Below are positions 16,317-40,000 of a DNA stretch of 64,000 bases, piece by piece. Location of the stretch: IMG/VR virus record IMGVR_UViG_3300042373_001362, positions 32,001 to 96,000 of that record. One strand, given 5' to 3'. The position numbers and the translations under genes are program-made. Numbering within the stretch: position 1 is the first letter of the stretch; each line of letters opens with the position of its first letter. The notes under the pieces are model-generated. The model did no database searches and was not told the origin of the DNA. It was given only the letters and a program-made list of their open reading frames with translations. The stretch comes from a virus.

Positions 16317-16323
16317 AGAGAAA

Positions 16324-16368: not shown

Positions 16369-16530
16369 TGACCACCGTCCTTTCCTTTCCGACAGCAGGT
16401 TTGTAGGTACCTGGTATCAAGAATACACGCATGAATAATAAACGAACAATAAATAATTGCCGAAATAATGCAAAGAAGAAAAACTTCTGATGCTATTATT
16501 GTTTCATACCCCCTCACTCAAGGAGAAAAT

Positions 16531-16884: not shown

Positions 16885-16908
16885 TTAAAAATTAACCAAA
16901 ATCTGATT

Positions 16909-16935
16909 AAAGCGCTTCTTCGGGGGCGCTTTTTT
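16909..16935 (+). terminator. intrinsic terminator
   Basis: AAAGCGCTTC-TTCG-GGGGCGCTTT stem-loop followed by a T run. Confidence 0.8.
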
Positions 16936-16960
16936 CATGCCCAATATAGAGCCGTAGGGC

Positions 16961-19766: not shown

Positions 19767-19801
19767 TAGTACCGTCCTAGTTAGTAGCTGGTCTCCCAGT
19801 G

Positions 19802-21118
19802 CTAGATAACGATAGCAATCCTTCTTCTTTGTTGCAACCCGAGTCCGGCCAAATGTGTAAAAGCCCCAACAGCAGAGTCCACTTGGTCGTCATGGTCGCA
19901 TGCTTCAGGGAAAGAAGAAAGTTCATCAAGCCATTGAGTCAGCCATGGACCCCTAACTACCCTTACGTTTCCATTTGCTACTGCTGCGGCAAATGGTCTA
20001 GCCCTAGTGACCTTGTCTCCGGTTGCCCTAACTCCAGAAAAGTTATAACCGGGAAGAACGTATCTGGCGTACTGGTCGACAAGCGCTTTACCGCTTGAGC
20101 CGGGCTCCATTTCCATAAGAATCGGGGTATCTAGACCGTCTTCGTATGCTGTTTGAGATATTAATTGCTCGACTTTTTCCCCACGAACCCTGACTCTCTT
20201 GACGTCCATGATGTAGGCAATGCCTTGGTCAAACATCATCAAGGTTCCAACCGTGTAGTCAGGGTCAGGGTTGTTTGAACTTGGTTCGGTTGCTGCAAGG
20301 TCCCAAAACCTAACAACTCTTGCTGTGTTGGATATTGTTGGAACTTCAGACTGGTCAATAATAATTACCGACTCTCGTTCAAAGAGGCTTCCGAGAGTCG
20401 TGCTCCACCAGTCACCTTCTTCAAGTCGTCTACGCTCGATTGGGTCAAGGGCTTGCAGAGCCTGACGATACGAATCAGCGTCAATTCCGGGGTTGTCCGT
20501 AAGTTTTGAAGGTACGAATATTCTTCCTTCAGACAATCCCTCAACAATGAATCTCTGCCTTACCCAGTTGGGCGCAGGGTTAGATGCGCAACGCATTCTG
20601 AGGGGGACTTCCGATAGAGGGCCAGAGTTGGGTCGACGCAAGCGGGAGAACATGTAGCGATAGTCGGATTCCCGGATTTCGGTGACTTCGTCCATTCCGA
20701 TGAACTGGAATTCAGAACCTTTGTAGCGAAGATAGTCGGACTGGTTGTTTAGATATCCAAACGAGATTCTTGCCCCCGAAGGGAAGGTAGCCACGAAGCT
20801 GTTGTTGTTCCAGTGGACATCGTCATAGTTGGACATCCACGACTTAAAGCGGTCCATGAGCGCTCCAGGGAGCGACAAGTCTGCGAATGTTCTACGAAAA
20901 AGAATTGCAGAATAGTTGGGAATATCTACAAACTGAAGGGCGGACATTAGAAGCGCAGAAGACTTACCACCGCCAGCAGCACCCCCAAAAAGGGCCTCAA
21001 TGCCGTTAGTTCTTAAAAACACCTTTTGAGGCAAAGACGGCTCTTCTGGGCAGTAATCGGACATCTTTGGTTGGAGATACTCAAGAACTTGTTCCCAGTT
21101 CGTAGGTTGTTCTGACAT
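19802..21118 (-). CDS. terL: terminase large subunit
   Basis: GGAAGGGKS Walker A, MDEVTE Walker B, SNP, FWDLAAT and HDDQVDS nuclease motifs. Confidence 0.93.
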   Translation of the reverse strand: MSEQPTNWEQVLEYLQPKMSDYCPEEPSLPQKVFLRTNGIEALFGGAAGGGKSSALLMSALQFVDIPNYSAILFRRTFADLSLPGALMDRFKSWMSNYDDVHWNNNSFVATFPSGARISFGYLNNQSDYLRYKGSEFQFIGMDEVTEIRESDYRYMFSRLRRPNSGPLSEVPLRMRCASNPAPNWVRQRFIVEGLSEGRIFVPSKLTDNPGIDADSYRQALQALDPIERRRLEEGDWWSTTLGSLFERESVIIIDQSEVPTISNTARVVRFWDLAATEPSSNNPDPDYTVGTLMMFDQGIAYIMDVKRVRVRGEKVEQLISQTAYEDGLDTPILMEMEPGSSGKALVDQYARYVLPGYNFSGVRATGDKVTRARPFAAAVANGNVRVVRGPWLTQWLDELSSFPEACDHDDQVDSAVGAFTHLAGLGLQQRRRIAIVI

Positions 21119-21174
21119 ATATATCTCCGGGTTGTTTAGTCTGATGATACTCCAATGCGCTAGGCTGTGAGCAT

Positions 21175-21354
21175 ATGCAAAAGTTATGGCTACGAGTTAA
21201 AATCAGACTGAACAGGTCTTTGTTCGCTTATTTTTTCATGGTTTCATTTATAATACTATCTAGTATTGGTGCAGCGCTTATATACCCCCCAGCTGGTTTG
21301 CTGGTTGGAGGGGCTACATGTGGCTTCTTCGGATTTTTGTTAGGTCGTGAGTAA
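21175..21354 (+). CDS. small two-TM membrane protein preceding the portal (59 aa, below the ORF-track cutoff)
   Basis: MQKLWLRVK...IGAALIYPPAGLLVGG...LLGRE*; typical position in HK97-like head modules. Confidence 0.65.
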   Translation: MQKLWLRVKIRLNRSLFAYFFMVSFIILSSIGAALIYPPAGLLVGGATCGFFGFLLGRE

Positions 21355-21359
21355 AAAAT

Positions 21360-23438: not shown

Positions 23439-23536
23439 TTTTAGTATTTAGTTTTAGTAAACGACGCTAAAAACCTGAATACTTGCGGTTTCCATTGGTA
23501 TTTTCGTTTATTATCGAAGAAGACACAAGGAGTCAC

Positions 23537-26500
23537 ATGTCCTCTTCTAATAAAAAATCCGACATTCAGTACAAGGCTGCACCGCAAGGAATGGTGAATT
23601 TAGACGAGGCCCAAGGCATCGTCGAATGTTTTGTCGCTGGGATAGGCAACAAAGACTCTGTTGGTGACGTTTGCGCACCAGGAGCTTTCGGCAAGAGCCT
23701 TACCAGAAGGAAGCCACGAGTCGTATGGGGACACAACTGGAACGACCCCATTGGCAAGGTCATCGATATGTACGAGGTTCCACCCAACGACCCTCGTTTG
23801 CCAGCAAAGATGAAGGCTGCAGGAATTGGCGGTCTTTATGCTCGCGTTCAATTCAACCTTATGTCGGAAAAGGGTCGTGAGGCGTTTGCCAATGTTGCTT
23901 TCTTTGGTGAAGAGCAAGAGTGGTCTATTGGTTACAAAACAATCAATGCAAAATTTGACCCACAGATGCAAGCAAACATTCTTTATGAAGTAGAGCTTTA
24001 TGAGGTGTCTCCAGTTCTTCATGGTGCAAACCAGTTGACAGGAACAATTTCAGTAAAGTCGGAAGAGCAGCCATCTGGCGTTTCAGTAATTAATGCACCA
24101 AGCATTGATGGATTAAACGTAAATGAGCTTTCTTCTATTCTTGATGCACTCAAGGCTATTTCTTCTTCCGTTTCAGAAGACGAAAAGTGTGGACCAGGAA
24201 TGATGCCACAGGGAATGCCAGGAATGCCTTCTGGTGGACCAGGCATGCCTTCTGGGCCAAAGCCAATGCATACACATACCCCTGGTGCAGCACCAAGAGA
24301 AGTTGTTAAGCCACAAATTCCATCCATGCCAGAAAACCCAATGACCGTAGCGCTTCGCCGCGAACTTGCGACTCGCACCGGCTCAAACGTAATCGTGCGT
24401 TCAGCAAGCGACAGTGTCGTTGTTTTTGACAGAGTGCTGGCTGACGGAACGTCAAGCACATACAGACTGCCTTTCCATTATGCCGGTGGAGAGTTTATGT
24501 TTGGCAAACCAGAAAAAGTTCAGTCTCAAGCAAACTACGTCCAAGATTCTCCTTTGTCTGAAATCATGGTTGAAGCGCTTCTTTCTGGCCCCACTGCAGG
24601 CGCAGAAAAGTCTTTAATCTCTTTTGATGACCAAGAGTGGGGTGAAGGATTTGGGCAATCAATTCCGTCACAGCAAGTTGATGCTTCAACTTTGAATAGC
24701 GTTATCGCTAATCTTCAAAAAATAATCGAGCAGAAATCTGAATATGTTGTTCAAGTTGCTCCAGAACATGCTTTTGAAGTAAAGCAAGCGATAGACCCAA
24801 TTCTTGATTTCTACAAGGTTGACGCAACCATCAATGAAGATGGAATTGTTGTTAAGTCACTCAATGAAGACTTTTTGAACGCTCTTGACATCGCCACAAA
24901 AGGCGTATTACGCAGTCTTGGCAACCTTGCGGGTAGAGCAATAGACCGCCCTAATATTGGCAGAAACAGAAGAGACAGAACACCCAACCTTGCATCACGA
25001 GGCCCTGGAATTGGTTCACGAGGAGCGGTAGTAAGACTCCGTGATGGAAGCATGTGGGACCCAAAAAACGCACCGGATAGAAACCGTAATGGCATTGTAG
25101 GTGAAGGCCTCTTTGACAGTAGCGGAAGGTCGTTGGCACAGCCAGACCCAACACCAGAGGGGCCAGATTCTATCCGGGGAGCAAAGACACCAAAGTCACC
25201 GCAGACCCCTAAAAGGCAAGCAGCGGCTGCCGCAAAAAGAAACGCTACTGTAAAAAGAACTTCTGGGCAGCCCCAGAAAGCAAGGCAGCGTCTTTCTTCA
25301 GGCGGAATTGACCAAGAAGTTGACGATACACCAATGCTTGAGGAGAAGTTCAAGAAGGAAGTCTCTGGCTTTTTGTCTGAAATAGGAACAAACCGTAATG
25401 AGATAGAAAACATTCTTGACCTGTGGGAAAACAACGATGCAGACCATGACAAGTACATGGAAGAGCATGGAGCTGGTTCAAAAAACTTTGCTGAAAACGT
25501 GGCTTATGCAGCGTCAGCAATGTACGAAGACTACATCTCTGATGCGGGAGATAGGCAGGCTGACCGTCGTGCCGAGGGAGGGCGTTTCTCGTCTGGCGAG
25601 TGGACAAAAATTCCTGGTGTTGGCTATGAGATGGATGCCCCAGACATCGAAGGTGCTTACGAAATCCAAGAAGGCCTTGATGGGAAGTTCTATGTAGTTA
25701 GATTCTCTGATGGCAACCGCAACGGTGGTCAGGACATGACCGAATACGAACATGACAAGCCTTTCTCTACTCTTGCAGCAGCAAAGAAGTGGGCTGAAAA
25801 AGACTATGCACAAGCAGCGGACGAGTACATGCCAGATGAAGAAATGCCAGATGGTGATGCATCCGAAAGACTGAATAGCCTTGTTGCTCCAGAACTACCA
25901 AGCCTTGACGGCATGGACGAGTCTGAAGCAGATGAAGCCTTGCAAAACTTTAGTGACGAAATGTTCAGCTTTGTTAACGAGACAGAGAACATTGCCAGAG
26001 AAGTACTAGGTGACGACGAATACAACAAGAGATTTGGCGGAGCAGTGCCCCTCATTGAAGAGATTTCAAAGAGGCACGATGGAAGCATTGAGCAGCGTGA
26101 TATTGCTCTAGAAAATGCCTTTGACCAAGCAGAGAGGTTTAACAACTCTGTTAACGGTTCACTTGGCGGCGGAAGATTCTCTTCTGGTCAAATCGACTTC
26201 GACAAGATAGGTGAATCAGGTCTCAGGGAAATGCGCCATGTTGAGCGCAACCCTCTTAGATTTGATACACAGGCAGACAAAGATGCACGCGCTGCGTACG
26301 AACGGGTTGTAGCAAACTTTAGAGCAAACAACGGTTTCTTCCGTGAAGTGCCCATGTATGCAGGTGATAAAAAGTGGCACAGCGAAGACTGGTTCCGTGG
26401 CCGCGAGATGGCAGAAAACGTTGCCACCTTGCGATTTGGCGACCCGATTGACCAAATGCCGTTCTTCGATAAACCAGGAAAGCCATCAAAAAGAGAATTC

Positions 26501-29500
26501 TTCGAGAGAACTACGGCTGTTGATTACAAGTCCTGGTATATGACCAAAATTCCAGCCATGACGCAAGAGCTGGACAGAGTGCTTGCTTCCGACGCCTATT
26601 CAGATGAATACAAAGAAGCATTCCTAGAAGGAATGAGGACATTCTTCTACGTGAATAGGCCAAACCTTCAGTACGCTCCGAAAGATACACAGGCGCAGTA
26701 TGAAGAGTGGCTTCAGCGGTCAGGTCTCGGCTGGAAGGGTAGATACTCTACTTCTGGTCCAAAATTTGAAGACCTTGACGACACGGGAAGATTTTCTTCT
26801 GGTGCTAAAGACAAAAAAACAATCAATTCGTATGACAACTCGGAAGACCTTAAATCGGCGATGTTTAGCGCATTGTGGACAAACGGTTCACGTGACGAAA
26901 TAAACAACATGACAGCTGAAGAGCTGGCTGAAATACTAAGCGTAAATCCAGAATGGGTTGAACCTCTTCTTGAAGACACTAAAAAATACACAATCGAGGC
27001 AATGGACGATTATGATAAGTATTTATCTTCTCTTCCTGAGCCAACTGATGAAGAGATAAACCAGGAGTACCAAGAGTGGTTGTCGCGACAGGCTGGCGCA
27101 GACTACGCACAGGGCATGACTGTTAGAGACAAATTCCAGGACATGACCGACGAAGAGGCTGCAGACTACGCTGCATGGCTCGACGAAGAAACATGGAGAG
27201 ACAGAGACGATAGGTTCTCCTCGGGAGGAGGCAAAACACCTGAAGAGCGTCTTGAAGAATACAACAGAAGAAGTGCAGAAAAGAACGCAGTTCTTGAAAA
27301 GATGACTCCCGAAGAGCTAGAAGAATACGCTCGTGAATGGAATGAAAGTCATGTTGAAGATGTTCGTCTTTCATCTGGTTCAACAAATAGACCAAAGTCT
27401 ACAAAAACCGGAGAAGAATTTATTGGCCGTAGCTATGGTCTTCATGATTTCTTTGTCTACGACGAAGAAGACGATTTTGAAAACATCGACAAAGCTATTG
27501 TAGATTCGCTTCTTAAGAACGAAAGAATAACCCTTGATGACCTTTTGCTTGAAGTGCGAGGTATTAAGGACCCTGACCTTAGCGGAGAGGCATTGGTCCG
27601 CAGGCCGGACTATATGGGCGCAAACGCAAGGCGTGTTGCTGAAGCCGTTGCAAACAACACATCCGTTAATCCATCGCTGGCCAACCAGAAAGCCGGAAGA
27701 GAAGACATACTTCACTTTAGGTACAACGGTAAGCAGCGCTCCATATACCCAGAGACTTTTTCAACAAGCAAAAAGGGTGTTGGTTATTTTGTTGGATGGG
27801 ACGAAACCGCAGATAACGGCAACGGTGCATACAGAAGTTTCAATGTAGACAAAATAGAAGGTCTTATATCTAGCGCAATACCTCCACATGTAGACAGAGC
27901 AGCAAGGTATACCGATTATTCATGGAACATAACTGACTTCTCTGATGAAGATAATCAAAAAATTCTTGAACAGATGCGACGCACTAAAGAGTTCAGGGTT
28001 CTTGATGACGCGCAAGACCTGATAGACGATGAGGTGAGCGCAGGAGGCACAAGAGTTGCAGGCTCGACTCTTGATATTGCGGAAAAAGAAGCCCAAGCAG
28101 CTTTCCAGGATGCTCGCAATAGACAAATCGACAAGATGGTTGCCGACGGCAAAATTAAGCCGCTATCAAGAGATAGTAGATTCTCTTCAGGAATGGTTAA
28201 CGACGGTCTTCCAGACGGATACTGGGACACCGCAGACGACATGGCAGATTCTTATGGTGATAGAGAAGACTATACAGACGCAAGATTCTCCTCTGGTGGA
28301 ATGCCAAGCACCAAAGAGCAAGCAGACCTAATAGCGTTTGCTAGGTCAAAGCCTGGCACTTTTACAGACAGTGTTGTTTCTCAATTTGACAGAAATAGAA
28401 GACTGTCAGAAAAGCAATGGGACGCAATACGCAGAATGATGCGCGGCGCATCTGGTGGTAAGGCTGCTCCAAAAGCAGATAAACCAACTGCTCGTTTTTC
28501 TGGAAAGCGTCGTCAAATTGTAGATATTGCCGATATTGAAAAGTATGACTACCCAGAGCTTCCTGCAAAGATAAAGCCAACACCGGAACAAGACAGAGCT
28601 ATCGATGCGATGATGACTGGTGCAGACGTAAAGATTGGTGCTTTAGCAGCAACAGGAAAGACGACAACCGTTATCAACTTTGCTAACCGTCTTAAGGCTA
28701 AAGAGCCAGACGCAAGGGTTGTCTATCTCGTGTTTAACAGAAACGCAAAAGACGACGTAGAAAAGCGTGGAATGCCAGGAAACGTTTCTGTCTCAACGAT
28801 GGACGGAATTGCTTACAGAGCAATGGACGCTATCAACCCAGAAATGACCAAGAAGAGCTTTGACAAAAAAGAGGGCCACATAAAGCCAATCAACTCTTTC
28901 AAAGATAGGGCTAAGTATCTTGGTACAAAGGGAATGGTTTCCCAAGGCGAAGAATTGACCGATGTTGATGTTTATAGAATCGTAGCTAAAGCGATAGATG
29001 CCTATTCAATAAGCGACGACAAGGAAATTGGACCACAACACTTTACTGGCCCATACAACGGTTCATACAGGGTGACAGACACTTCATTGCTTCCTGAGTT
29101 GCTTAAGTATGCAAACAAGATGTGGGAAGACATGAATCTTCCTAGAGTCAATGGTGCCACCAGGAAAGACCAAAAAGGAATGCTTCCTGTAAACAACACA
29201 CATCTAACAAAGATGTGGGCATTGACAAATCCAGACATAAGCGAAATTGCTGAAGTCAATGTGGCAATGGTTGACGAAGCTCAAGACATGAACCCAGTTT
29301 TTGCTGGAATATTGAGGAACTCAAACCTTCAGAAAATCTACATTGGTGACACAAACCAGGCAATTAACGCATGGCGTGGAGCAGACGGAACAACGCTTGC
29401 AAATGTAGAAGCAACATACGACATGCCAATTACTGATTCGTTCAGATTCGGCAAGAACGTAGCGAACATGGGCAACAGATTCCTTTCGCTTCTCAATACA

Positions 29501-32500
29501 AAAGAGCGCATGACCGGAAGAAAGACAGACAAGTCTGGAAATCCTGTTGACGGAAGAATTGGACAAGTTGATAACCCAACAATGATTTTGACACGCTCTA
29601 ATGGCGGAGCTATCGCTGCAACCATGGAAGTGTTTGCAGATGGTGGAATTGTTTACGGAAGCCAAAACTTCAAGAGAGATTTGGAGAACTTCTTAAACAA
29701 CATCGAATGGATGCAGAATGCCCAAAAGGGCAAACCGTTCTATACAGACGTATATGGAAAGAAAGTATTTTCAGCTCCTGAGTTCAGTCAAGACCTTGAC
29801 GGAATTACAAACATTGCAGACTTCAATAAGGCTATTGAAAAGGGCGATGACAACAGACTGAACATGCTTTCTAAGCTGATGAACGAATACTCGCTTGAAG
29901 ACTTGAGAGAATCTCTCAATAACATCATTACAGACAAAAACAAGCTTCCAAAGAATCGTGACGAGTATGTCCACATCCAGACAGCCCACACATCAAAGGG
30001 CCTCGAATCACCACGAGTGAAGATTTGGTCAGACTTTAGAAAGCCAAAGAAACTTCCAAACGGTGAATGGGAATACCCGAACGAGCAGGAGATGAGGCTT
30101 TCCTATGTTGCTGTAACAAGAGCAGAGGAAGAACTTGACCTAGGTTCACTTAGTTGGATTCTTGACCACACAACAGAAGAGGACGGTATGCCGAATACTT
30201 TCTCTTCTGGAAGAAGCAAGGCAAGAGGCAACAGAGGTGATGGCAAGGGAAGACAAAAACCATGGTCGGCAGAAGATAGGCAAAGATTTGCGGACAGGGA
30301 CATTCTTCGTTCACAAACACGCCCAGGAAAGCGTCGTCCAGGTCCTTCAGCAAACGAATTCTCGTCTGGTGCTGAATTTGATTTCACTCCAGAAGAGCTC
30401 AATAGGTGGCAAAAAGCTAGCGAACATGCCAGCGCGTATGGCGATTGGGAAAATCTTCCAGAAAACAGAAAAAACGGATATCTTCGTAAATTCAACGGAG
30501 ATGAAAATCTTGCTCGCGAGCAATTTAACGTGGAAAGAGATTTGGCAGACTTTGCTGCAGATGCACAATTTGACAAAACAGATTCACGATTCTCTTCTGG
30601 AGGCCGCTTCGCAACACCACTGGATGCACCAGAGGGCTGGGAAATGCCAGAAATTGGTGATGACGGCGAAATAAAGAATGGACCGCTTAAGGGTTACTAT
30701 GTTCGTGGCTTCGGGGACGATTACGTACGAGGAAGAAAATACGTAAGCTATCGTGGTGCAGACTACAGTAGTACTGATGAGCACAAAAATAACTTAGTTG
30801 ATTGGGGTGATTACGAAGCGGGATACACCCTCGACAGAAACATAGGCTCTGACGAGGACATTAGGAGCATTTCTGACTCTTCCGAGCAAGAAGAAATGGC
30901 GCAGTATGGCGACGAAGGTTTGTACTATGGCAATAGTTCACGCGGGCGATACGACCCTCAAAATGATTATGAAACTCCAGTAACCGACGACTCCCATTCA
31001 CCAGAAAACGGTGCAGACCACATCGGTAAAGCCGTATCCGTAACGGATGAAAATGGAAACAAATTCTACGGTGTAGTTGTTAGAGGTTGGGAACCGGAAT
31101 ACGAAGAAGACTTAGATGTTGATGAGGATGGGTGGGCAACCCCGAGCATGAACATACAAGACGGTGGCATGGTAGTTCTCGCTACTCATGATGCTGACGG
31201 CAAAAAACTTGATAAACCAGTAGTTGTTGAGGCAAGTTTTGGTCTTGAAAATGAATACGCCCTCGTATCAAATGTTGAGAGAGGTGGAGACGACTACGAA
31301 GGGCCAAAGGTCAATGTATCAAAAGGCCGTGTAAGTGAAGAAACCCTTGACGAAGCCAAAAAGCTTTATGAAGAACTGGACCCATATAGAAATGGTAAAG
31401 CCGAGGAGTTCAGGCGTCAAGGAGCCTTGATAGATAGAGCATGGAGAATGCCGGGAGGCGAAAAAGAGCGCAGGGAAAAAGCTGCCGAAGAAGCTTACAG
31501 AAGAAGCCCTGAAGGAATACAAGAGCAAAGAGAAAAGCTAGAAGCATCCATATCGGCTATAGAAGACAAGATAAGAAGCGCGGAGTCTTCTCGTGAATCT
31601 CTCATGGAGAGGCTGAACGATGTTTCTGAAAGTGGAGACAATGTCCTTGCTTCAAAAATGGAAGAAATATTAAGAGACAGAGAGGGAGCGGTACGACTCC
31701 TCCAAGAAAGACTTGAAGAAGCAAAAGCTGAACTAGATGCTTTTAATGGCGAAGGAAACAGGCTTTCTTCTGGAAGATTTGCGCCTGATGGACAATCGGG
31801 TTCAAGGCTTCAAAGAAGACTTTCTTCTGGCGATGTTTTTGGCCCACCACCAGGACAGTCGGCAAGGTATGACCGCAAGAAGCAAGTCGAGGCAACGATG
31901 GGTGCATTCCATTCTGACCCAGGCAAGGCTGTTGTGTCGAGCGACACCGAAGGCTTATTGGGTAAAATCCCTTCCGGTAAGAACTCCCATATCCTTAACG
32001 CCGAAGCAGCTAAGAGAATAATTGCAGACCCAGATACAGAGTATTCAGCAGATACCGGATGGCCGGTAGATGCAGGAAGACTTCTTGATTTCATCGAAAT
32101 TGAGAATCCTCTTGGTGGACGTCCAAGCACTCTTCGTGATAAAGACGACGCACAGCTTATTGCAAGGGTTTTGGGTATACCAGTATCGGATGCTCAGGAC
32201 ATGCTTGACGGAAAGCCTGTATACATTGCCAGCTCAACTGCGGCTGACATGTTTGACAACCTTTCAAGAAGCAGAGAGTACACAGCAAGCGTTGGTGGAT
32301 TAAACGACGTAGCGAGAGTTTGGGGATTTGATGGCGCTCCAAAGTGGGTGCGTCATAGCGATATTGCTACTCCAGAATTTGACCTCGACGAAAACGACAG
32401 AGTTAACTGGTCGCAGGTTAAGTGGGATGGACTTTCGAGGGCTGACTTTGATGCAGCAGTAAGAAGAGGGAATAACCCACCAGAACCCGTATACACATCA

Positions 32501-35374
32501 CCTGTTGAGTTTTTCAATAGTGATGCAATCGCCAGTAACCCCAAGTGGGACGCTCGTGGTGGCTCATTCAGAAACCCAACTGTGGATGCTGAGTTCACTG
32601 CAACACCAAAGAAGGTTGCTAGAGCTGAACAGCTGGAGCCAGAAAGATTTGTTTCTCAGGCAAGAGCCGGAGAAAGGGTTGCACGCGCTGACAAAGATTT
32701 CATGGATGAATGGACCAACGGAAGTCATGGAATTGGTGCAGCGCAGCTTATGCAAATGCTTGGATTGGAAAGAGATTCAGAAGGCGACCGCATAAGCAGC
32801 CAAGACGTAAGAAAGCTTCTTGATGAAATAAACAAGATTAAAGAAGAAGCTGGAAGCGGACTTGTTCCTGCTGCAAAGAGGGAAGACGGAAAATTTAAAG
32901 AATCACTTGAGCTGGACACAAAGAAGTCTCCAATCAATGATGAAATAATGCACGCCCTCATTGTTTCTGGAAGATTCAAGAACATGAAAGAAGCGGTTGC
33001 TTCTCTTGGTGACCCAAGACTTGATTCTCTTGCTGCAGAATATGACTCCCGCATGCTTGTAGATGCAGCATTTATAAGAATCAAAGACCATTTAAACAAG
33101 GTTGGAGCAGCAGACCAAAAGAAGATTCTTTCTAAGGTAATCACTGCCACCCTTGGTCGCAAGACAACACTTGAATCTCGCGTACAGGAAGGCAGAGCAT
33201 CAATCAAGGGTGTAATGAATTCAGACGCAATGATTGGCGATGAAAAGCTTTCCGAAGTAATTGGCATGGTCAACGAGGTTCTTGATGCAAGGGGTCTTGA
33301 GACAATCGACAAGGATGCATTGTTCCCAAGGGACGAGGCAGGCGGATTTGTGAACAACTTGAGTGCTTCGGCTCCAGGCGCAACGAGGCTTGCTTCTGGT
33401 CAGAGGTTTGTAGCCAGAACCGCATCAAGCAGAAGAGCTGATGCCGGAATGGATGCTGCAGCAAGAAGAGCAACAGATAGGCCAACGTTCTCAAGCGGTG
33501 CAAAGCCAGCATTTAGGGACCCAGACGGAAAACTGAACGCCACAAACATGAGAGATGCTGCATCCGAAGCAACAATTCCAGAAGGAACAATGATAAGAAA
33601 AACTCCTGGCCAAAATATAGAAGACTTTGAAAAAGCAGTTAAGACGAGGGCCGAAATAGCAGAAACCCTAAACATAGATACTTCAGCAATAAATGGCTTT
33701 ACTGTCTACGACGTTATAGACGAGCTTAAAAAGGCAGGAATACCTGAAGATACCGCAGAAGACCTTGTCGATAAGCTTGTAGAACTAGATTTCTATATTG
33801 ATGCAATCGAGGAGAGATTCTCTGAAGCCAGAGAAATCATGGATGAAGCTATTGAAGAAGCTGAAGATGCTATGGACAAGATTGCGAAGCTAAGAAAAGA
33901 GCGTGCCGACATTATTAATAGGTACGGCGAAGAAGATGGACAGCCACTGCTTGAGGTTGTTGATGAAAAAATTAGCAGAGCGACAAAAAAGCTTGACGAT
34001 GCCTACCAAAGAGGTATCGGCAATGAGGATGCAAGAATGGGAACTCTCTATTCTCAGGTTGACGAAATTCTGAGCAATAATCGTGGATGGAGAGAGTATT
34101 CGCCATCCCCATGGGGAGATAGTACAAATCAGAACCTTGCTGCTCTTGAATTAGCAATTGCAAAAGCTGGCGGAGTAAAGAAAGCCGTACCAGTTACGGG
34201 AATAGATTTCGGAGTTCCAGAAGGCACAAGGCTTTCTTCAGGAAAAGCAGAAGAGTATTACCAAAACCTCACAAGCCACTTGATAAACATGATTGAAAAA
34301 TCACAAAAAGAAGGCGGTAAGTGGGAAGCACCATGGCATAAGGCTGGAAACCTTCCAAGAAATGCTTCTACAAAGAATATGTATTCGGGTGGAAACATCT
34401 TTGCTCTTATGCTTGCAGCCGAAGAAAAGGGCTTCACAACCTCTCACTGGGGTGGATTCCAGCAGTGGAAGAAGCTTGGAGGAAGCGTAAAGAAGGGTGA
34501 AAAGGCAACCATCATCCTCATGCCAAAGCAGATGTTTGGTGAGGAAATCGACCCAGACACAGGGCAGAAGGTTAGAAAGTCAAAGGGCGTATATTTTACG
34601 ACCGCACATGTTTTCAACCTTGACCAAGTTGAGGGAATTGACCGCGATGAGTTCTTGAAGCTGCCGACAGATGCTCTGACACCAGAGCAGAGAGTCACAA
34701 AGCTTGAAGACGCAATCAAGGAAGTTGGTGCAACAATCAAGACCGGAGATGGAAGTAGGGCCTACTACTCTCCGCGTGAAGACCATGTTGTGATGCCTCC
34801 ATTCGAACTGTTCAAGTCCCCAGAGGGATACTACGGAACACTCGCCCATGAGCTTGTTCACTGGACAGGGCATTCGTCAAGACTTGACAGAAAGAACATG
34901 AACCAGTTTGGTTCTCCTGACTATGCAAGAGAAGAGCTTATTGCTGAATTTGGCTCAGCTTTCCTGTTGGCAATGTTTGGTCTTTCTGCAGAACCAAGAG
35001 AAGACCATGCCCATTACTTGGCAAACTGGTTGCAGGTTCTTCGCGATGAGCCAAATGCTCTACAGGAAGCAGCAACGAAAGCTCAAGAAGCATCAAAAAT
35101 GCTTATCGACAAGATGAAGGCAGTTCTGGAAGAGATGGGCGAAACCGCATCTACTGCTGAGTCGACGGTAGAAGAAAAGAATGCAAATATTTTTACAGAC
35201 CCGCTTTACGGAATAAAGAATGGACTTGTTGAGTGGAGCAAAAACATTGAGAACGCTCCATATTTCATCAAATCCTTGACAGACCCTGATGAGAAATACG
35301 GAAATGTAAATAGAAGATGGGAAAGAATTGCGGAAGCAGCGCTATTCCTGAACGGAATAAACAACAAAATCTAG
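23537..35374 (+). CDS. giant polyprotein 1: prohead protease + RFSSG-delimited modules (WYL, SF1 helicase, ArdC)
   Basis: AAGGAG RBS before ATG 23537; continuous ORF; domain motifs listed separately. Confidence 0.9.
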   Translation: MSSSNKKSDIQYKAAPQGMVNLDEAQGIVECFVAGIGNKDSVGDVCAPGAFGKSLTRRKPRVVWGHNWNDPIGKVIDMYEVPPNDPRLPAKMKAAGIGGLYARVQFNLMSEKGREAFANVAFFGEEQEWSIGYKTINAKFDPQMQANILYEVELYEVSPVLHGANQLTGTISVKSEEQPSGVSVINAPSIDGLNVNELSSILDALKAISSSVSEDEKCGPGMMPQGMPGMPSGGPGMPSGPKPMHTHTPGAAPREVVKPQIPSMPENPMTVALRRELATRTGSNVIVRSASDSVVVFDRVLADGTSSTYRLPFHYAGGEFMFGKPEKVQSQANYVQDSPLSEIMVEALLSGPTAGAEKSLISFDDQEWGEGFGQSIPSQQVDASTLNSVIANLQKIIEQKSEYVVQVAPEHAFEVKQAIDPILDFYKVDATINEDGIVVKSLNEDFLNALDIATKGVLRSLGNLAGRAIDRPNIGRNRRDRTPNLASRGPGIGSRGAVVRLRDGSMWDPKNAPDRNRNGIVGEGLFDSSGRSLAQPDPTPEGPDSIRGAKTPKSPQTPKRQAAAAAKRNATVKRTSGQPQKARQRLSSGGIDQEVDDTPMLEEKFKKEVSGFLSEIGTNRNEIENILDLWENNDADHDKYMEEHGAGSKNFAENVAYAASAMYEDYISDAGDRQADRRAEGGRFSSGEWTKIPGVGYEMDAPDIEGAYEIQEGLDGKFYVVRFSDGNRNGGQDMTEYEHDKPFSTLAAAKKWAEKDYAQAADEYMPDEEMPDGDASERLNSLVAPELPSLDGMDESEADEALQNFSDEMFSFVNETENIAREVLGDDEYNKRFGGAVPLIEEISKRHDGSIEQRDIALENAFDQAERFNNSVNGSLGGGRFSSGQIDFDKIGESGLREMRHVERNPLRFDTQADKDARAAYERVVANFRANNGFFREVPMYAGDKKWHSEDWFRGREMAENVATLRFGDPIDQMPFFDKPGKPSKREFFERTTAVDYKSWYMTKIPAMTQELDRVLASDAYSDEYKEAFLEGMRTFFYVNRPNLQYAPKDTQAQYEEWLQRSGLGWKGRYSTSGPKFEDLDDTGRFSSGAKDKKTINSYDNSEDLKSAMFSALWTNGSRDEINNMTAEELAEILSVNPEWVEPLLEDTKKYTIEAMDDYDKYLSSLPEPTDEEINQEYQEWLSRQAGADYAQGMTVRDKFQDMTDEEAADYAAWLDEETWRDRDDRFSSGGGKTPEERLEEYNRRSAEKNAVLEKMTPEELEEYAREWNESHVEDVRLSSGSTNRPKSTKTGEEFIGRSYGLHDFFVYDEEDDFENIDKAIVDSLLKNERITLDDLLLEVRGIKDPDLSGEALVRRPDYMGANARRVAEAVANNTSVNPSLANQKAGREDILHFRYNGKQRSIYPETFSTSKKGVGYFVGWDETADNGNGAYRSFNVDKIEGLISSAIPPHVDRAARYTDYSWNITDFSDEDNQKILEQMRRTKEFRVLDDAQDLIDDEVSAGGTRVAGSTLDIAEKEAQAAFQDARNRQIDKMVADGKIKPLSRDSRFSSGMVNDGLPDGYWDTADDMADSYGDREDYTDARFSSGGMPSTKEQADLIAFARSKPGTFTDSVVSQFDRNRRLSEKQWDAIRRMMRGASGGKAAPKADKPTARFSGKRRQIVDIADIEKYDYPELPAKIKPTPEQDRAIDAMMTGADVKIGALAATGKTTTVINFANRLKAKEPDARVVYLVFNRNAKDDVEKRGMPGNVSVSTMDGIAYRAMDAINPEMTKKSFDKKEGHIKPINSFKDRAKYLGTKGMVSQGEELTDVDVYRIVAKAIDAYSISDDKEIGPQHFTGPYNGSYRVTDTSLLPELLKYANKMWEDMNLPRVNGATRKDQKGMLPVNNTHLTKMWALTNPDISEIAEVNVAMVDEAQDMNPVFAGILRNSNLQKIYIGDTNQAINAWRGADGTTLANVEATYDMPITDSFRFGKNVANMGNRFLSLLNTKERMTGRKTDKSGNPVDGRIGQVDNPTMILTRSNGGAIAATMEVFADGGIVYGSQNFKRDLENFLNNIEWMQNAQKGKPFYTDVYGKKVFSAPEFSQDLDGITNIADFNKAIEKGDDNRLNMLSKLMNEYSLEDLRESLNNIITDKNKLPKNRDEYVHIQTAHTSKGLESPRVKIWSDFRKPKKLPNGEWEYPNEQEMRLSYVAVTRAEEELDLGSLSWILDHTTEEDGMPNTFSSGRSKARGNRGDGKGRQKPWSAEDRQRFADRDILRSQTRPGKRRPGPSANEFSSGAEFDFTPEELNRWQKASEHASAYGDWENLPENRKNGYLRKFNGDENLAREQFNVERDLADFAADAQFDKTDSRFSSGGRFATPLDAPEGWEMPEIGDDGEIKNGPLKGYYVRGFGDDYVRGRKYVSYRGADYSSTDEHKNNLVDWGDYEAGYTLDRNIGSDEDIRSISDSSEQEEMAQYGDEGLYYGNSSRGRYDPQNDYETPVTDDSHSPENGADHIGKAVSVTDENGNKFYGVVVRGWEPEYEEDLDVDEDGWATPSMNIQDGGMVVLATHDADGKKLDKPVVVEASFGLENEYALVSNVERGGDDYEGPKVNVSKGRVSEETLDEAKKLYEELDPYRNGKAEEFRRQGALIDRAWRMPGGEKERREKAAEEAYRRSPEGIQEQREKLEASISAIEDKIRSAESSRESLMERLNDVSESGDNVLASKMEEILRDREGAVRLLQERLEEAKAELDAFNGEGNRLSSGRFAPDGQSGSRLQRRLSSGDVFGPPPGQSARYDRKKQVEATMGAFHSDPGKAVVSSDTEGLLGKIPSGKNSHILNAEAAKRIIADPDTEYSADTGWPVDAGRLLDFIEIENPLGGRPSTLRDKDDAQLIARVLGIPVSDAQDMLDGKPVYIASSTAADMFDNLSRSREYTASVGGLNDVARVWGFDGAPKWVRHSDIATPEFDLDENDRVNWSQVKWDGLSRADFDAAVRRGNNPPEPVYTSPVEFFNSDAIASNPKWDARGGSFRNPTVDAEFTATPKKVARAEQLEPERFVSQARAGERVARADKDFMDEWTNGSHGIGAAQLMQMLGLERDSEGDRISSQDVRKLLDEINKIKEEAGSGLVPAAKREDGKFKESLELDTKKSPINDEIMHALIVSGRFKNMKEAVASLGDPRLDSLAAEYDSRMLVDAAFIRIKDHLNKVGAADQKKILSKVITATLGRKTTLESRVQEGRASIKGVMNSDAMIGDEKLSEVIGMVNEVLDARGLETIDKDALFPRDEAGGFVNNLSASAPGATRLASGQRFVARTASSRRADAGMDAAARRATDRPTFSSGAKPAFRDPDGKLNATNMRDAASEATIPEGTMIRKTPGQNIEDFEKAVKTRAEIAETLNIDTSAINGFTVYDVIDELKKAGIPEDTAEDLVDKLVELDFYIDAIEERFSEAREIMDEAIEEAEDAMDKIAKLRKERADIINRYGEEDGQPLLEVVDEKISRATKKLDDAYQRGIGNEDARMGTLYSQVDEILSNNRGWREYSPSPWGDSTNQNLAALELAIAKAGGVKKAVPVTGIDFGVPEGTRLSSGKAEEYYQNLTSHLINMIEKSQKEGGKWEAPWHKAGNLPRNASTKNMYSGGNIFALMLAAEEKGFTTSHWGGFQQWKKLGGSVKKGEKATIILMPKQMFGEEIDPDTGQKVRKSKGVYFTTAHVFNLDQVEGIDRDEFLKLPTDALTPEQRVTKLEDAIKEVGATIKTGDGSRAYYSPREDHVVMPPFELFKSPEGYYGTLAHELVHWTGHSSRLDRKNMNQFGSPDYAREELIAEFGSAFLLAMFGLSAEPREDHAHYLANWLQVLRDEPNALQEAATKAQEASKMLIDKMKAVLEEMGETASTAESTVEEKNANIFTDPLYGIKNGLVEWSKNIENAPYFIKSLTDPDEKYGNVNRRWERIAEAALFLNGINNKI
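23615..24061 (+). other. HK97-type prohead protease domain (S78)
   Basis: DSVGDVCAPGAF, WGHN..PIGK, GLYARVQF, WSIGY, LYEVSPVLHGAN. Confidence 0.9.
27701..27862 (+). other. WYL-like domain
   Basis: HFRYNGKQRSIYP...YFVGWD...YRSFNVDKI. Confidence 0.7.
28577..30145 (+). other. UvrD-like SF1 helicase domain
   Basis: TPEQ, ALAATGKTT, VDEAQD, IGDTNQAINAWRGA, SFRFG, TAHTSKGLE, YVAVTRA. Confidence 0.9.
34244..35120 (+). other. ardC: ArdC-like domain pair (ssDNA-binding + zincin metallopeptidase)
   Basis: APW..PRN..YSGGN..FQQWKKLGGSVKKGEK..VFNLDQ; AYYSP..HELVHWTGH..RLDR..YAREELIAE. Confidence 0.88.
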
Positions 35375-37033: not shown

Positions 37034-40000
37034 ATGACGGGTACGTTTAAAACGAAAACAAGATTTTATACCTCTTCGCAATTTGTGACCCCTATTTCAG
37101 GGCGCAAGCATTTCGTTGACTCCGCTATTGATTTCAGGCGAGGCCTTATTGAGAACTCATCAATGGCCGTTCTTAATGCCGATATCGCTGTTAAGGCTGC
37201 AATGGGAGCAGGGCTCTCTTCGTCTTCTGCTTCTGTCGGTCAAAAAGCACAGGGCGGCACATCTCCCGATTCTGACGGCAAAAAGCGCGTCAACAAAGGT
37301 GGCGTTCCTGGAATGGAAGAAGACGCCAACGGCTATAGGTACATGCCTGAAGCAACATGGGGTCCAGATAAGGTCCTAAATCTTTTTCCATCTCAAGAGA
37401 ATAGACAGTCAACAGACAGAACTCCAAACTTTGGATTCATCGACAAGGGTCCAGTCATCACTCCAGAACAATACGTTCAAAAAATGGAGAACGAACCACG
37501 AATCAGGATGTCCAAATACAAAATCAACTCTAGAACTGGTGAGCCTATAGAGGACACTGAAGTTGAATTTGACCGAATGAGATTCGGAAAAACTTTTGAT
37601 ATCAATCCAGATGTATCTGATGAAATATCTGAATCAGTTTCAGAAGAAATACAGGAAAAAAGTTTAGGAAGAAGTCTTAAAGAAAGAATGCCCGGCGGAA
37701 GCCTTATCGGAAGAGCTGCTGCTCGATTTGGCGTAATTATGGATGAACTTGGGAAGATGAGATGTCCTCCAGGAACTCCAGCCGCAAACCAATTTACCGA
37801 CATGACGGGTTCAAACTGTTTTGGCACATCGCCAGGAACGTTGATATCCGAAGCAATAAACCTTGCTCAAAACCTTGTTCCAGAAGACGATTCAAGACGT
37901 TCCTCTCGCCTCACAAGAGGCATTGTGAATCTTATGTTCGACTTAGAAAACGGTTTGTTTGGCAACAACGTCTGGTATCACGCAGACGGAACAAGAATGA
38001 AGCACGGCGAGTGGCGCAAGTTTCGCGAAGCTGGTGGTGTAGCAAAAAATGAACGCTGGATGGTCAATGGTGTTGAGAGAGTACTTGCCGAATTGGACTC
38101 TCAAGATGCACGAATGGAAGACCTTTATAGCAAGCTTGGCATAGACGTAAGCGATGTCAGAAAAGCAACAAACGAAGATGTATTTGAAGCTTTTCAAAAA
38201 CTCAAAGATTCAGGTGTAATTAGAGCTCAGCTTAGGGGTAGGCCATCGGCGGCTCAAGTTGAGGCGATGATGACTGCTCGCTTGCAAAACATGGACGCCC
38301 ACTGGATAGCAAGAAGCGCTGAAGAAAGAAAAATACTACTTGATATCGAGGTTAAGCGGTATAGGGAGCTAGAGAGAGCCCACATGGAGGCTTTTCTAGA
38401 TGAGGTTATTAAAAACCCAGAGCACATGAAAACTATCGGTGACGTCACTTTTAACCCAGCCGGAAGAGACCGCGCATCGTTTGGGATATCTAGGATAGGC
38501 CCAGATGGCAAGCCAGTTGGCTCTATAAATATAGACATACCGATGTCGCTCAAGTTTCAGGACTCAATGTTGCCAAATCTTTCTCCAGATGAGAGGCTAC
38601 GCATTTGGGCCGAAGGTGGACAGTCTGAAGTTTTGAGAGCAATGGCTGTTAAAGATTTCCTTGTTAATTCTAACTCTCATGCTGGACAGATGATAGCGAT
38701 GGTTGATGGTGGTCGTGGCCTTGGTCGACACGACATGAAACACGAAATAGCCCACTCAATCCAAGCCGTTGCGATATTCAACCATATGAAGAGAGAGCTA
38801 GACGCACGTGGCTCGCTCGTTATAGACAATGGAGAAAACAAAGCGCCCACCGTAATAACGGACGTAAGTCAACTTAACTCTGACATGCTTATGGCGTTGA
38901 TGGCTAGAGAAAACTTTATGGGCATTGACCTCAACTCACTAAAAGACCTCAGGTCTAGAGGTGACGTTGTTGCTTTTCTCGCTGGAAAATATATTGACGA
39001 AGTGCAGGCTCAATACGGAGGCATGAGAAGAGCGGCAGAAATAGGTGCAGAATTATGGTCACTCCGCAGTTCTGGTTTAATTTATGGCGATGACGTTGAT
39101 GCGGCTCTTGAATATATGGATGATGTTGCTTCTGGGGCGATTACAATTGATAGGACAGTTTCGGACGAAATTTTAAACAGAAGAGTTTATGAAGAATACC
39201 TCGATGGCTCCCGAAGGATACGCGAAGCCAGGGAGGAATCCGAGAGGCTCGCTGAAGAGGCTGAAGACGGGGAGTTTTTTGACGCGGAAGGAAGGGCGTC
39301 TGCCGAAAGGCTTTCTGCTGCCAGAGAAGCATACGCAGCAGAAAAACGCGCAGAAGTAAAAGAAGTAAAAGAAGCAGCAAAAACAATGTCTGAAGAAGAC
39401 ATGATTGACTTCCTCGCCGATGCGACAGAATCTTCTGATGTTCTGACAGAAATGCTTGATTCAGTAGAAGAAGCAGGTGAGGAACCTGACTGGATGTCTG
39501 TCATGGACAGAGACACTCTAGATGCAATGTCAAAAGCGGTTGTTGATGAATGGGTAAAAAGGTTTACCGTAAGAAGAAGCCCTGAGGCTATGGAAAAGCT
39601 TCAGAAAATGATTGACGACAAGCGTGAATCAAAAGGAACACTTTCTCCAGAAAAGGTTGAAGAGCGAAGATTTAGACAGTTCATGGAAGGTGCTGCTGAG
39701 CGGGCACAAGAAATGGGCCTAGAAGACCTTGTTCAGGCATACTCTGACTGGGAAGAGCTCGCTACTGGAGAAGGCGTTGATGGCGTCGACAGGGCACGCA
39801 GAAAAGAAATGCGTGATATGTACAGGGACGAGTACATAAAGAGAAGAACAGAAGGTCCTGACTCTGTTTCCAAAGAAGACGCACGCAAAGAATTCAACTC
39901 AAAGTTTAAGACACTTCGCAAGCCAAAGACAACGGCTGCTCGCGAAAGAGAAAAAAGAGCAAATCCGAAGAAGTTTAAAACTCATAACGGTAAAGATGGA

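What the first reader, a model, noticed from the sequence alone, without database searches (positions are those of the whole stretch)
25304..28282. Run of short, strongly acidic unknown modules between motifs (candidate DNA-mimic/anti-defence mini-proteins)
SEEN: consecutive motif-to-motif intervals of 98, 197, 205, 141, 51, 271 and 35 aa. Most are Asp/Glu-rich with aromatic residues, and only the 271-aa one has a recognisable domain (WYL). KNOWN: Ocr, ArdA and several anti-CRISPRs are small acidic nucleic-acid mimics. INFERENCE: this is an array of small injected inhibitors hidden from gene callers inside one ORF.
Basis: inference. Interest (0 to 1): 0.72.

Follow-up and report, generated by a model that had tools for sequence, protein, structure and literature searches.

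The report
Acidic cargo modules in phage polyprotein
An uncultured 148-kb actinophage fuses its capsid-maturation protease to a chain of about 3,900 residues made of unrelated small proteins, many very acidic, separated by a cutting-type motif that matches the capsid protein's own maturation site, so the pieces are probably freed inside the capsid, though neither cutting nor DNA mimicry has been shown.

Summary
ORF 23537-35374 (+) has motif-to-motif intervals of 98, 197, 205, 141, 51, 271 and 35 aa. Five of the seven pieces are strongly acidic (pI 4.05-4.7). The 271-aa piece carries a WYL-type domain.

The motif [RK]-[FL]-S-S-G is far above chance. It occurs 15 times here, 9 times in the second giant ORF, and 180 times against 3.5 expected in 15 related giant proteins. 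Its codons vary. It marks the exact edges at which modules are swapped between relatives. It lies in low-confidence linkers of the AlphaFold models. It also aligns with the HK97 capsid-protein maturation cut (K103|S104) in the capsid protein of a cultured relative.

The best reading is a protease-headed polyvalent cargo polyprotein, cut into small proteins in the prohead and probably ejected with the DNA.

Four units are predicted folded (2N, 2C, 4 and the WYL core), so the pieces are not all disordered filler. Only one unit (2N, about 80 aa) has free-standing homologues. These are small early genes of about 38-kb actinophages, and they are much less acidic. No fold or sequence link to Ocr or ArdA was found, so DNA mimicry stays unsupported.

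This scan has noted analogous motif-punctuated head polyproteins in at least 10 other phage genomes, with other motifs.

The parts
23537..35374 (+). Giant ORF 1, about 3,945 aa from the ATG. Residue numbers in this report follow P0001, which starts 18 codons upstream at TTG 23483. It is a protease-headed polyvalent polyprotein.
   Evidence: An AAGGAG site lies 7 nt before ATG 23537.
23618..24049 (+). Peptidase_S78 (HK97-type) prohead protease domain, aa 46-189, containing WGHN, WSIGY and EVSPV.
   Evidence: Pfam E 3.4e-9; phrog_3244 head maturation protease; motif positions.
25289..25303 (+). RLSSG motif 1. It marks the end of the protease/scaffold-like/basic-tract segment 0.
25301..25594 (+). 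Module 1, 98 aa, pI 4.28, net -14. Predicted helical, pLDDT about 55-79.
   Evidence: Homologues are found only inside other polyproteins.
25595..25852 (+). Module 2N, about 80-aa alpha/beta domain, pLDDT 90-96, net -13. It is the only unit with free-standing homologues (71-96 aa).
   Evidence: gene contexts.
25865..25882 (+). ERLNSL, a probable decayed copy of the motif between modules 2N and 2C.
   Evidence: In relatives 2N and 2C are separate motif-bounded modules; position.
25919..26185 (+). Module 2C, an acidic four-helix bundle, pLDDT about 85-92, net -12.
26186..26800 (+). Module 3, 205 aa, aromatic-rich (15%), pI 5.6. The model is of low confidence.
26801..27223 (+). Module 4, 141 aa, pI 4.06, net -22. 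It has a confident helical core, pLDDT 90-96.
27224..27376 (+). Module 5, 51 aa, an acidic helical hairpin.
27377..28189 (+). Module 6, 271 aa: N-terminal helices, a WYL-type beta barrel (core about 27566-27895) and a C-terminal helical part.
28190..28294 (+). Module 7, a 35-aa acidic-aromatic peptide, predicted disordered (pLDDT about 30). It is not conserved even in the 85%-identical relative.
28295..30208 (+). UvrD-type helicase module, motif-bounded.
34241..35371 (+). ArdC-N plus MPTase-PolyVal module. It starts directly after the last RLSSG.
   Evidence: The module begins at offset 0 after a motif in five more distant relatives (P0005, P0007, P0008, P0011, P0013), in four of which it sits at different places in the chain.
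37034..47506 (+). Giant ORF 2, 3,490 aa, with 9 further motif copies, an RNase_T exonuclease module and a C-terminal minor-head-protein (head morphogenesis) module.
53888..55255 (+). Major capsid protein, HK97 fold. K140-D-V-Y-S144|A145-L146 (nt 54305-54325) aligns with the HK97 cut K103|S104 and with D-V-F-S|S-G of Gordonia phage Chidiebere.
21360..23438 (+). Portal protein, directly upstream.
19802..21118 (-). Large terminase, divergently transcribed.

Best explanation
The stretch 25301-28294 is the fast-changing, N-proximal cargo section of a capsid-targeted polyvalent polyprotein. The chain starts with an HK97-type (S78) prohead protease, which takes the whole chain into the procapsid.

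At maturation that protease cuts at each [RK]-[FL]-S|S-G. The cut position is placed by alignment with the capsid protein's own maturation site. This frees seven or eight small proteins from this stretch, as well as a helicase, an ArdC unit and others.

The pieces are small enough to leave through the tail with the DNA and act in the first moments of infection, most likely in host takeover or counter-defence. One piece is an HTH/WYL-type nucleic-acid-ligand sensor look-alike of the CapW, BrxR and PafBC kind. Another is a packaged version of a small early protein of smaller actinophages.

The strong negative charge is probably an adaptation of packaged cargo rather than proof of DNA mimicry.

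Shown: the motif statistics, the module boundaries, the predicted folds, the free-standing homologues and the capsid-site alignment. Inferred: cleavage, packaging, ejection and function.
For: - The protease domain, UvrD helicase, ArdC-N and MPTase-PolyVal lie in one uninterrupted ORF next to the portal.
- The motif is enriched about 50-fold in 15 related giants, with consensus [RK]-[LF]-S-S-G-[RKGA]. Its codons vary.
- Homologous modules in relatives begin 0 residues after a motif and end at the next one. They occur in different orders, copy numbers and positions. Examples are the ArdC module at five different positions and module 2N duplicated in P0003.
- All six motifs covered by the two AlphaFold models lie in stretches with pLDDT below 50.
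- The capsid protein of Gordonia phage Chidiebere is 49% identical to this phage's and carries D-V-F-S-S-G. This aligns with the experimentally known HK97 cut K103|S104. The window's own capsid protein has V-Y-S-A-L there.
- Folded units: 2N pLDDT 90-96, 2C 85-92, module 4 core 90-96, WYL core about 85.
- 14 free-standing 2N homologues of 71-96 aa were found. They sit in runs of small genes beside WhiB, or at the head of the replication operon.
- WYL: Pfam matches 5 of 6 homologous modules, and VIA-align gives Z 5.7-6.9, rmsd 1.9-3.1 over 71-79 residues, to BrxR, PafBC, CapW and DriD.
- The gene order terminase, portal, polyprotein, a roughly 500-aa gene and a second giant is kept in relatives.
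- Known parallels: T4 internal proteins, SPN3US ejection proteins cut by the prohead protease, and polyvalent proteins (PMC9026906, PMC10052503, PMC5512222).
Against: - No cleavage, virion proteome or ejection data exist for this uncultured phage.
- The window's own capsid protein carries a variant (Y-S-A-L), not the exact motif.
- The chain also holds a zincin (MPTase-PolyVal), which Iyer et al. proposed as the processing enzyme of polyvalent proteins, so the cutting enzyme is not settled.
- In the closest relative (L006) the protease part and the cargo lie in different frames.
- Module 3, module 7 and parts of module 1 are modelled with low confidence.
- Six of the seven intervals have no free-standing homologue among 1.84 billion representatives.
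Confidence: 0.65

Rival explanations
1. Scaffold or filler. The acidic helical pieces act as internal scaffold, spacer or charge-balancing propeptides in the prohead. They are cut out and expelled or degraded before or during DNA packaging and have no role in the host cell.
For: - They follow directly after the protease and a scaffold-like segment 0.
- They are mostly helical and acidic.
- Module 7 and much of module 3 are of low confidence.
- Content turns over quickly even between relatives of 85% and 68% identity.
- Packaged 2N is much more acidic than its free-standing homologues.
Against: - The capsid protein keeps its own ~145-aa N-terminal delta domain, which is the usual scaffold in HK97-type phages.
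- Modules 2N, 2C and 4 and the WYL core are confidently folded, with invariant residues.
- 2N is an early gene in small phages, a location that makes no sense for a scaffold.
- A WYL sensor domain is not a scaffold element.
- Two related polyproteins have no strongly acidic segment.
Confidence: 0.17
2. DNA mimics. One or more of the acidic pieces (1, 2C, 4, 5, 7) imitates the DNA backbone and blocks restriction-modification, CRISPR or other DNA-binding defence proteins on entry.
For: - Net charge per residue of -0.12 to -0.23 and D+E content of 23-29%. From memory, this approaches Ocr and ArdA.
- The pieces are small.
- They share a chain with the anti-restriction ArdC unit.
- Rapid module turnover is typical of arms-race genes.
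Against: - No Pfam, PHROG or PDB-sequence match to Ocr, ArdA or any anti-CRISPR.
- 2C matches only generic four-helix bundles at Z 8-10, within the range the tool calls common for helical models.
- In the 2N family, acidity is not conserved in free-standing members.
- Acidity is a general bias of these chains (overall -0.04 per residue; 23% of 168 segments below -0.10) and is absent in two members.
Confidence: 0.15
3. Not cut, or cut by another enzyme. The motif is a flexible inter-domain linker, a site for the embedded MPTase-PolyVal zincin or a host protease, or a modification site, and the chain acts largely intact.
For: - Iyer et al. proposed the MPTase as the processing enzyme (PMC5512222).
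- Both giants are said to carry a zincin motif. For ORF 2 this rests on a first-stage note that I did not verify.
- N4 packages a 3,500-aa protein intact (cited in PMC5512222).
Against: - The motif coincides with the capsid protein's maturation site in a cultured relative whose inspected head-gene region has no polyprotein or annotated zincin gene.
- A plain linker would not need an invariant S-S-G with [FL] before it in 180 of 191 cases.
- The S78 domain co-occurs with the motif in every relative that is complete at its N-terminus.
Confidence: 0.1

Closest known systems
Polyvalent proteins of phages and conjugative elements (Iyer, Burroughs, Anand, de Souza, Aravind 2017, PMC5512222)
   Same: Many unrelated domains sit in one phage polypeptide next to head genes. 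It carries the hallmark ArdC-N and MPTase-PolyVal domains, and its proposed role is delivery with the DNA and action at invasion.
   Different: Here the chain is headed by the prohead protease itself. It is punctuated by 15 copies of one short motif that matches the capsid maturation site. That paper proposed the zincin as the processing enzyme, and in the passages I read it describes no recurrent cleavage motif.
T4 internal proteins IPI-III and Alt (capsid-targeting sequence removed by the gp21 prohead protease) and the ejection proteins of SPN3US and phiKZ (PMC9026906, PMC5694885, PMC10052503)
   Same: Cargo is loaded into the prohead, trimmed by the head protease at a short consensus site and ejected into the host. 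IPI* is an anti-restriction protein (established knowledge).
   Different: Those are separate genes, each with its own targeting tag, and their protease belongs to another family with L/I-x-E or A/S/G-x-E sites. Here many cargos are strung on one chain fused to an S78 protease, with [RK]-[FL]-S-S-G sites.
HK97 gp4/gp5 maturation and protease-scaffold fusions (lambda C/Nu3, P2 gpO, herpesvirus assemblin-scaffold; established knowledge)
   Same: The S78 protease is packaged in the prohead, and the capsid protein is cut at the delta-domain boundary, which aligns with the motif. The protease is fused to another prohead-internal protein.
   Different: The fused partner is not a scaffold of a few hundred residues but about 3,700 residues of enzymes and small domains.
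WYL-domain regulators CapW, BrxR, PafBC and DriD
   Same: Module 6 has a beta barrel that matches their WYL domains, with helices before and after it, as in HTH-WYL-WCX proteins.
   Different: It is a module of a phage head polyprotein, not a cellular transcription factor gene. Its own Pfam score is below the cut-off, and the HTH and ligand-binding residues were not verified.
Ocr and ArdA DNA-mimic anti-restriction proteins
   Same: Small size and a strong negative charge.
   Different: No sequence or detectable fold relation was found. Mimicry of the DNA surface is untested.

Membership tests
Polyvalent proteins (Iyer et al. 2017) | Several unrelated domains in one polypeptide of a phage or conjugative element. 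| tested here: met
   S78 protease, UvrD helicase, WYL-type, ArdC-N and MPTase-PolyVal domains plus unknown modules in one ORF.
Polyvalent proteins (Iyer et al. 2017) | Hallmark domains such as MPTase-PolyVal and ArdC-N. | tested here: met
   PF18818 E 1.5e-43; PF08401 E 2.1e-25.
Polyvalent proteins (Iyer et al. 2017) | Phage type: encoded among late or head genes. | tested here: met
   Directly after the portal. The terminase, major capsid protein and a minor-head-protein module are nearby.
Polyvalent proteins (Iyer et al. 2017) | Delivered into the host with the DNA. | not testable with these tools
   Needs a virion proteome and infection assays.
Prohead-protease-processed capsid cargo (T4 IP / SPN3US E-protein type) | A short consensus site shared with the phage's own head-protein maturation sites. 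| tested here: met
   Chidiebere capsid protein F154-S155|S156-G157 and window capsid protein Y143-S144|A145-L146 align with HK97 K103|S104. The window's own capsid site is a variant of the motif, not identical to it.
Prohead-protease-processed capsid cargo (T4 IP / SPN3US E-protein type) | A means of targeting the cargo to the prohead. | tested here: inconclusive
   Fusion to the S78 protease (ORF 1) and to a minor-head-protein module (ORF 2) would serve this purpose, but incorporation is not shown.
Prohead-protease-processed capsid cargo (T4 IP / SPN3US E-protein type) | Observed cleavage and presence of the products in virions. | not testable with these tools
   Uncultured phage; no proteomics available.
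WYL domain (PF13280) | Sequence match above Pfam's gathering score. | tested here: not met
   The window's copy scores 14.7 bits against a cut-off of 21.8 (E 0.031). However, 5 of 6 homologous modules match, best E 3.2e-6.
WYL domain (PF13280) | Sm/SH3-like beta barrel that superposes on solved WYL domains. | tested here: met
   Twelve of the top 15 VIA-align rows are WYL proteins: Z 5.1-6.9, rmsd 1.9-4.0 over 71-96 residues. Plain Sm proteins score Z 3.4-4.1. Foldseek probability is 0.85-1.0 for CapW, DriD, PafBC and BrxR. The Z values are middling.
DNA-mimic anti-restriction proteins (Ocr, ArdA) | A small, strongly acidic protein. | tested here: met
   Modules 1, 2, 4, 5 and 7: pI 4.05-4.7, D+E 23-29%.
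DNA-mimic anti-restriction proteins (Ocr, ArdA) | Sequence membership in the Ocr or ArdA families. | tested here: not met
   No such Pfam, PHROG or PDB-sequence hit at permissive thresholds.
DNA-mimic anti-restriction proteins (Ocr, ArdA) | Fold and a surface charge array that imitate B-DNA, usually as a dimer. | tested here: inconclusive
   Fold searches of a 692-residue multi-domain model returned only generic helical-bundle matches for 2C and tested little else. Surface charge geometry and oligomer state were not examined.
DNA-mimic anti-restriction proteins (Ocr, ArdA) | Binds and inhibits DNA-binding defence enzymes. | not testable with these tools
   Needs biochemical assays.

The most novel reading that the evidence does not exclude
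A plug-and-play capsid cargo system in a lineage of uncultured actinophages. Any small early protein can become a pre-made, injected effector by insertion between [RK]-[FL]-S-S-G sites of a chain headed by the prohead protease. The fast-changing acidic section then holds several new families of counter-defence proteins, possibly including new DNA mimics and a decoy of the host's WYL-type defence or DNA-damage regulators.
Probability: 0.3. Interest if true: 0.8.

Novelty: new variant of a known kind. Interest (0 to 1): 0.58.

Why it matters
If the motif is cut as inferred, gene callers report one protein where the phage makes about 16 from this ORF and about 10 more from its neighbour. Most of these belong to no known family and sit in a position that predicts early, pre-transcriptional action against the host.

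The motif gives a simple rule for splitting such giants into testable units. It also ties the substrate preference of an S78 protease clade to a readable sequence signature.

The 2N family links a packaged module to free-standing early genes, which is direct evidence that phages move functions between 'expressed early' and 'injected ready-made'. For defence research, this acidic, rapidly shuffled section is a short list of candidates to screen. Its DNA-mimic label is only a guess.

Tried and rejected
- Megablast and tblastn of the ORF and of the stretch against 50,697 phage records found no match.
- An IMG/VR pattern scan with the 998-aa stretch found no relative.
- Per-module scans against Pfam and PHROGs at E up to 1 returned only noise, apart from WYL.
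- phmmer of the stretch and a profile of alignment A3 against PDB sequences found nothing meaningful. A3 carried many extra columns from full-length rows, so that profile test was poor.
- Foldseek of the 692-residue model against the PDB found nothing at E <= 0.001.
- VIA-align, both wide and second-look, was filled by generic four-helix bundles for module 2C. Module 2N got a single middling row: the MmoD inhibitory subunit, Z 7.3 over 67 residues, which I do not interpret.
- BFVD returned only uncharacterised small phage proteins, which are the 2N homologues.
- ESM Atlas gave no usable lead for 2N or module 4.
- The first MAFFT alignment for the 692-residue job misplaced the 2C and module-1 homologues onto 2N. 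I rebuilt it without them, so 2C was folded at depth 1 and modules 1, 3 and 4 at depth 3-4.
- The head region of Gordonia phage Chidiebere shows no motif enrichment and has separate genes instead of a polyprotein.
- I considered a DNA-level repeat and rejected it, because the codons vary.

Full report
**What is there.** The window is bases 32001-96000 of a 148,355-bp virus record with direct terminal repeats, rated complete, that carries three WhiB genes. Its portal, protease and capsid proteins are closest to those of Gordonia and Brevibacterium phages. It is therefore an actinophage, probably of a low-GC host (46.6% GC).

Directly after the portal (21360-23438) runs one open frame, 23483-35374. 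Its likely start is the ATG at 23537, seven bases after an AAGGAG site. Residue numbers below follow P0001, which starts at 23483.

Pfam finds the following in this one chain, and PHROGs agree:
- a Peptidase_S78 prohead protease at aa 46-189;
- a UvrD helicase at aa 1701-2218;
- ArdC-N at aa 3591-3711;
- MPTase-PolyVal at aa 3740-3865.

A conserved gene of 516 aa with no family match follows. After it comes a second giant ORF, 37034-47506 (3,490 aa). That ORF has an RNase_T exonuclease module and a C-terminal minor-head-protein module. The major capsid protein is at 53888-55255.

**Check of the observation.** [FL]SSG occurs 15 times in ORF 1. The seven intervals named in the finding are exact: 98, 197, 205, 141, 51, 271 and 35 aa. 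Charge values:

| Segment | pI | Net charge |
|---|---|---|
| 1 | 4.28 | -14 |
| 2 | 4.12 | -29 |
| 3 | 5.61 | -3 |
| 4 | 4.06 | -22 |
| 5 | 4.68 | -6 |
| 6 | 4.93 | -11 |
| 7 | 4.05 | -8 |

Against 175 other ORFs of the same genome, segments 1, 2, 4 and 7 lie in the most acidic 2-6% and segment 5 in the most acidic 9%.

R[FL]SSG occurs 21 times in all six frames of the genome, 19 of them in the two giants. The codons for R, S and G differ from copy to copy, so the repeat is kept at the protein level.

**Relatives.** An exhaustive phmmer search of aa 607-1604 against 1.84 billion representatives gave only 19 hits. Thirteen are proteins of 883-3,648 aa (eleven of them over 2,000 aa), five are short (79-150 aa), and one is a weak match to a repetitive 1,171-aa protein. 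Twelve of the thirteen large hits carry the motif, the near-complete ones 12-18 times each; the thirteenth, P0014, uses a variant motif.

Over 15 giants, [FLMI]SSG occurs 180 times against 3.5 expected, and 180 of 191 SSG tripeptides are preceded by L, F, M or I. The consensus is [RK]-[LF]-S-S-G-[RKGA].

BLAST of each segment against these proteins shows that homologous modules start 0 residues after a motif and end at the next one, while order and copy number differ:
- the ArdC module sits at five different positions in different chains;
- module 2N is duplicated in P0003;
- the 85%-identical relative lacks module 2C;
- the 35-aa module 7 is not conserved at all.

So the motif-to-motif pieces are the units of evolution, and this N-proximal section changes faster than the helicase, ArdC and segment 13/14 parts. 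The gene order terminase, portal, polyprotein, a gene of about 500 aa, then a second giant recurs on four metagenome contigs.

**Why the motif is probably the prohead protease's site.** The window's capsid protein is 49% identical to that of the cultured Gordonia phage Chidiebere, and both align with HK97 gp5. The GenBank record for HK97 gp5 notes removal of the N-terminus up to K103.

In the three-way alignment, HK97 K103|S104 falls on Chidiebere F154-S155|S156-G157 and on the window's Y143-S144|A145-L146. The polyprotein motif therefore copies the capsid protein's maturation site in this protease clade. The alignment places the cut between the two serines, give or take a residue.

All six motifs covered by the two AlphaFold models lie in stretches with pLDDT below 50, as expected for exposed linkers.

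The embedded zincin remains a possible alternative enzyme (PMC5512222). However, no zincin or polyprotein is annotated in the Chidiebere head-gene region I inspected, which nevertheless has the motif at its capsid site.

**The modules.** AlphaFold2 with shallow alignments gave mean pLDDT of 65.9 (aa 607-1298) and 62.9 (aa 1299-1604).

| Module | Prediction |
|---|---|
| 1 | helical, pLDDT 55-79 |
| 2N | small alpha/beta domain, pLDDT 90-96 |
| 2C | four-helix bundle, pLDDT about 85-92, even at alignment depth 1 |
| 3 | mostly low confidence |
| 4 | helical core, pLDDT 90-96 |
| 5 | helical hairpin, pLDDT 60-85 |
| 6 | helices, a beta barrel at pLDDT about 85, then helices |
| 7 | disordered, pLDDT about 30 |

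The finding's refutation condition, 'all fully disordered', is therefore not met.

The 197-aa interval is really two modules. 2N and 2C are separate motif-bounded units in relatives, and ERLNSL between them looks like a decayed site.

**WYL.** Pfam did not report WYL for the whole 271-aa piece. Five of six aligned homologous cores do match PF13280, with best E 3.2e-6. The window's own copy scores 14.7 bits against a cut-off of 21.8.

Foldseek's best rows are CapW, DriD, PafBC, BrxR and WYL1, at E 3e-3 to 0.1 and probability 0.85-1.0. VIA-align gives Z 5.7-6.9 to most of these, with rmsd 1.9-3.1 over 71-79 residues, above plain Sm proteins at Z 3.4-4.1.

**Free-standing homologues.** Only module 2N has them: 14 proteins of 71-96 aa, plus two uncharacterised small phage proteins in BFVD.

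They lie in runs of very small genes beside WhiB. On a 38-kb contig, the homologue sits at the head of the operon that continues with an AAA ATPase, a PD-(D/E)XK nuclease, DnaB, a primase and RusA, divergent from the structural genes. That is the usual place for early host-takeover genes.

These free proteins are much less acidic (net -2 to -7, one neutral) than the packaged copy (net -13 over 86 aa). Across the family, 23% of 168 segments are below -0.10 per residue, yet two chains have none.

The charge therefore looks like a frequent, non-obligatory property of packaged cargo rather than of the 2N fold. That argues against DNA mimicry as that module's conserved function.

**DNA mimicry.** I found no sequence or fold link to Ocr, ArdA or anti-CRISPRs. 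The fold searches of the long multi-domain model tested little beyond 2C, so this result is inconclusive rather than negative. I give the mimic reading about 0.15.

**Comparison with what is known.** The chain is a polyvalent protein in the sense of Iyer et al. 2017 (PMC5512222). It works like the protease-trimmed head cargo of T4 and of SPN3US and phiKZ (PMC9026906, PMC5694885, PMC10052503).

Three things differ from those cases:
- the cargo is fused directly to an S78 prohead protease;
- one short motif recurs about 15 times per chain and equals the capsid maturation site;
- modules are swapped at that motif.

My literature searches found no description of this arrangement. Earlier notes of this scan report analogous motif-punctuated head polyproteins, with other motifs, in at least 10 other phage genomes, so the general theme is not unique to this window.

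**Verdict.** I rate the feature a new variant of a known kind, with interest 0.58.

Noticed in passing
L006:2940-3030, equivalent to window about 24869-24890 (aa 463-470): In the closest relative (85% identity) the protease/scaffold-like part (449 aa) ends in a stop. The cargo continues in another frame a few bases on, at D-F-L-N|A-L-D. This is either an assembly indel or a real frameshift that would set the ratio of free protease to protease-cargo fusion.
   Followed up: partly
window 1792-6903 (-): A 1,703-aa ORF of no known family carries two motif copies: K-K-L-S-S-G about 38 residues from its N-terminus, and A-R-F-S-S-G near residue 743. It may be a third substrate of the same protease.
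   Followed up: no
window 46772-47503: The last motif of giant ORF 2 (F-L-S-S-G) precedes a 240-aa module that matches minor head / head-morphogenesis families (phrog_2859 at 5.9e-41, phrog_7625 at 1e-24). This would be the capsid anchor of the second chain.
   Followed up: partly
window 35466-37016: A 516-aa gene lies between the two giants. It is conserved in position in all relatives (472-558 aa) and has no Pfam or PHROG match.
   Followed up: no
window 24920-25300 (aa 480-606): A strongly basic, Pro/Gly/Arg/Lys-rich tract ends segment 0, directly before the acidic run.
   Followed up: no
P0014 (1,695 aa, metagenome): This family member has the same protease head but uses a drifted motif (G-F-[AS]-S-[RS]-T-G-G, G-L-S-S-S-T-G) in place of [FL]SSG. 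That suggests the site and the protease co-evolve.
   Followed up: partly
G000:C1:135239-135430, 461-652 and 92706-92921 (the last is window 60706-60921): The phage genome carries three WhiB-family genes.
   Followed up: no
L011 (Gordonia phage Chidiebere, record 11838-23758): In this cultured relative the space between portal and protease holds separate genes: an RNA ligase, a VIP2-like ADP-ribosyltransferase and a 971-aa HTH protein. It looks like the unfused counterpart of the polyprotein.
   Followed up: partly
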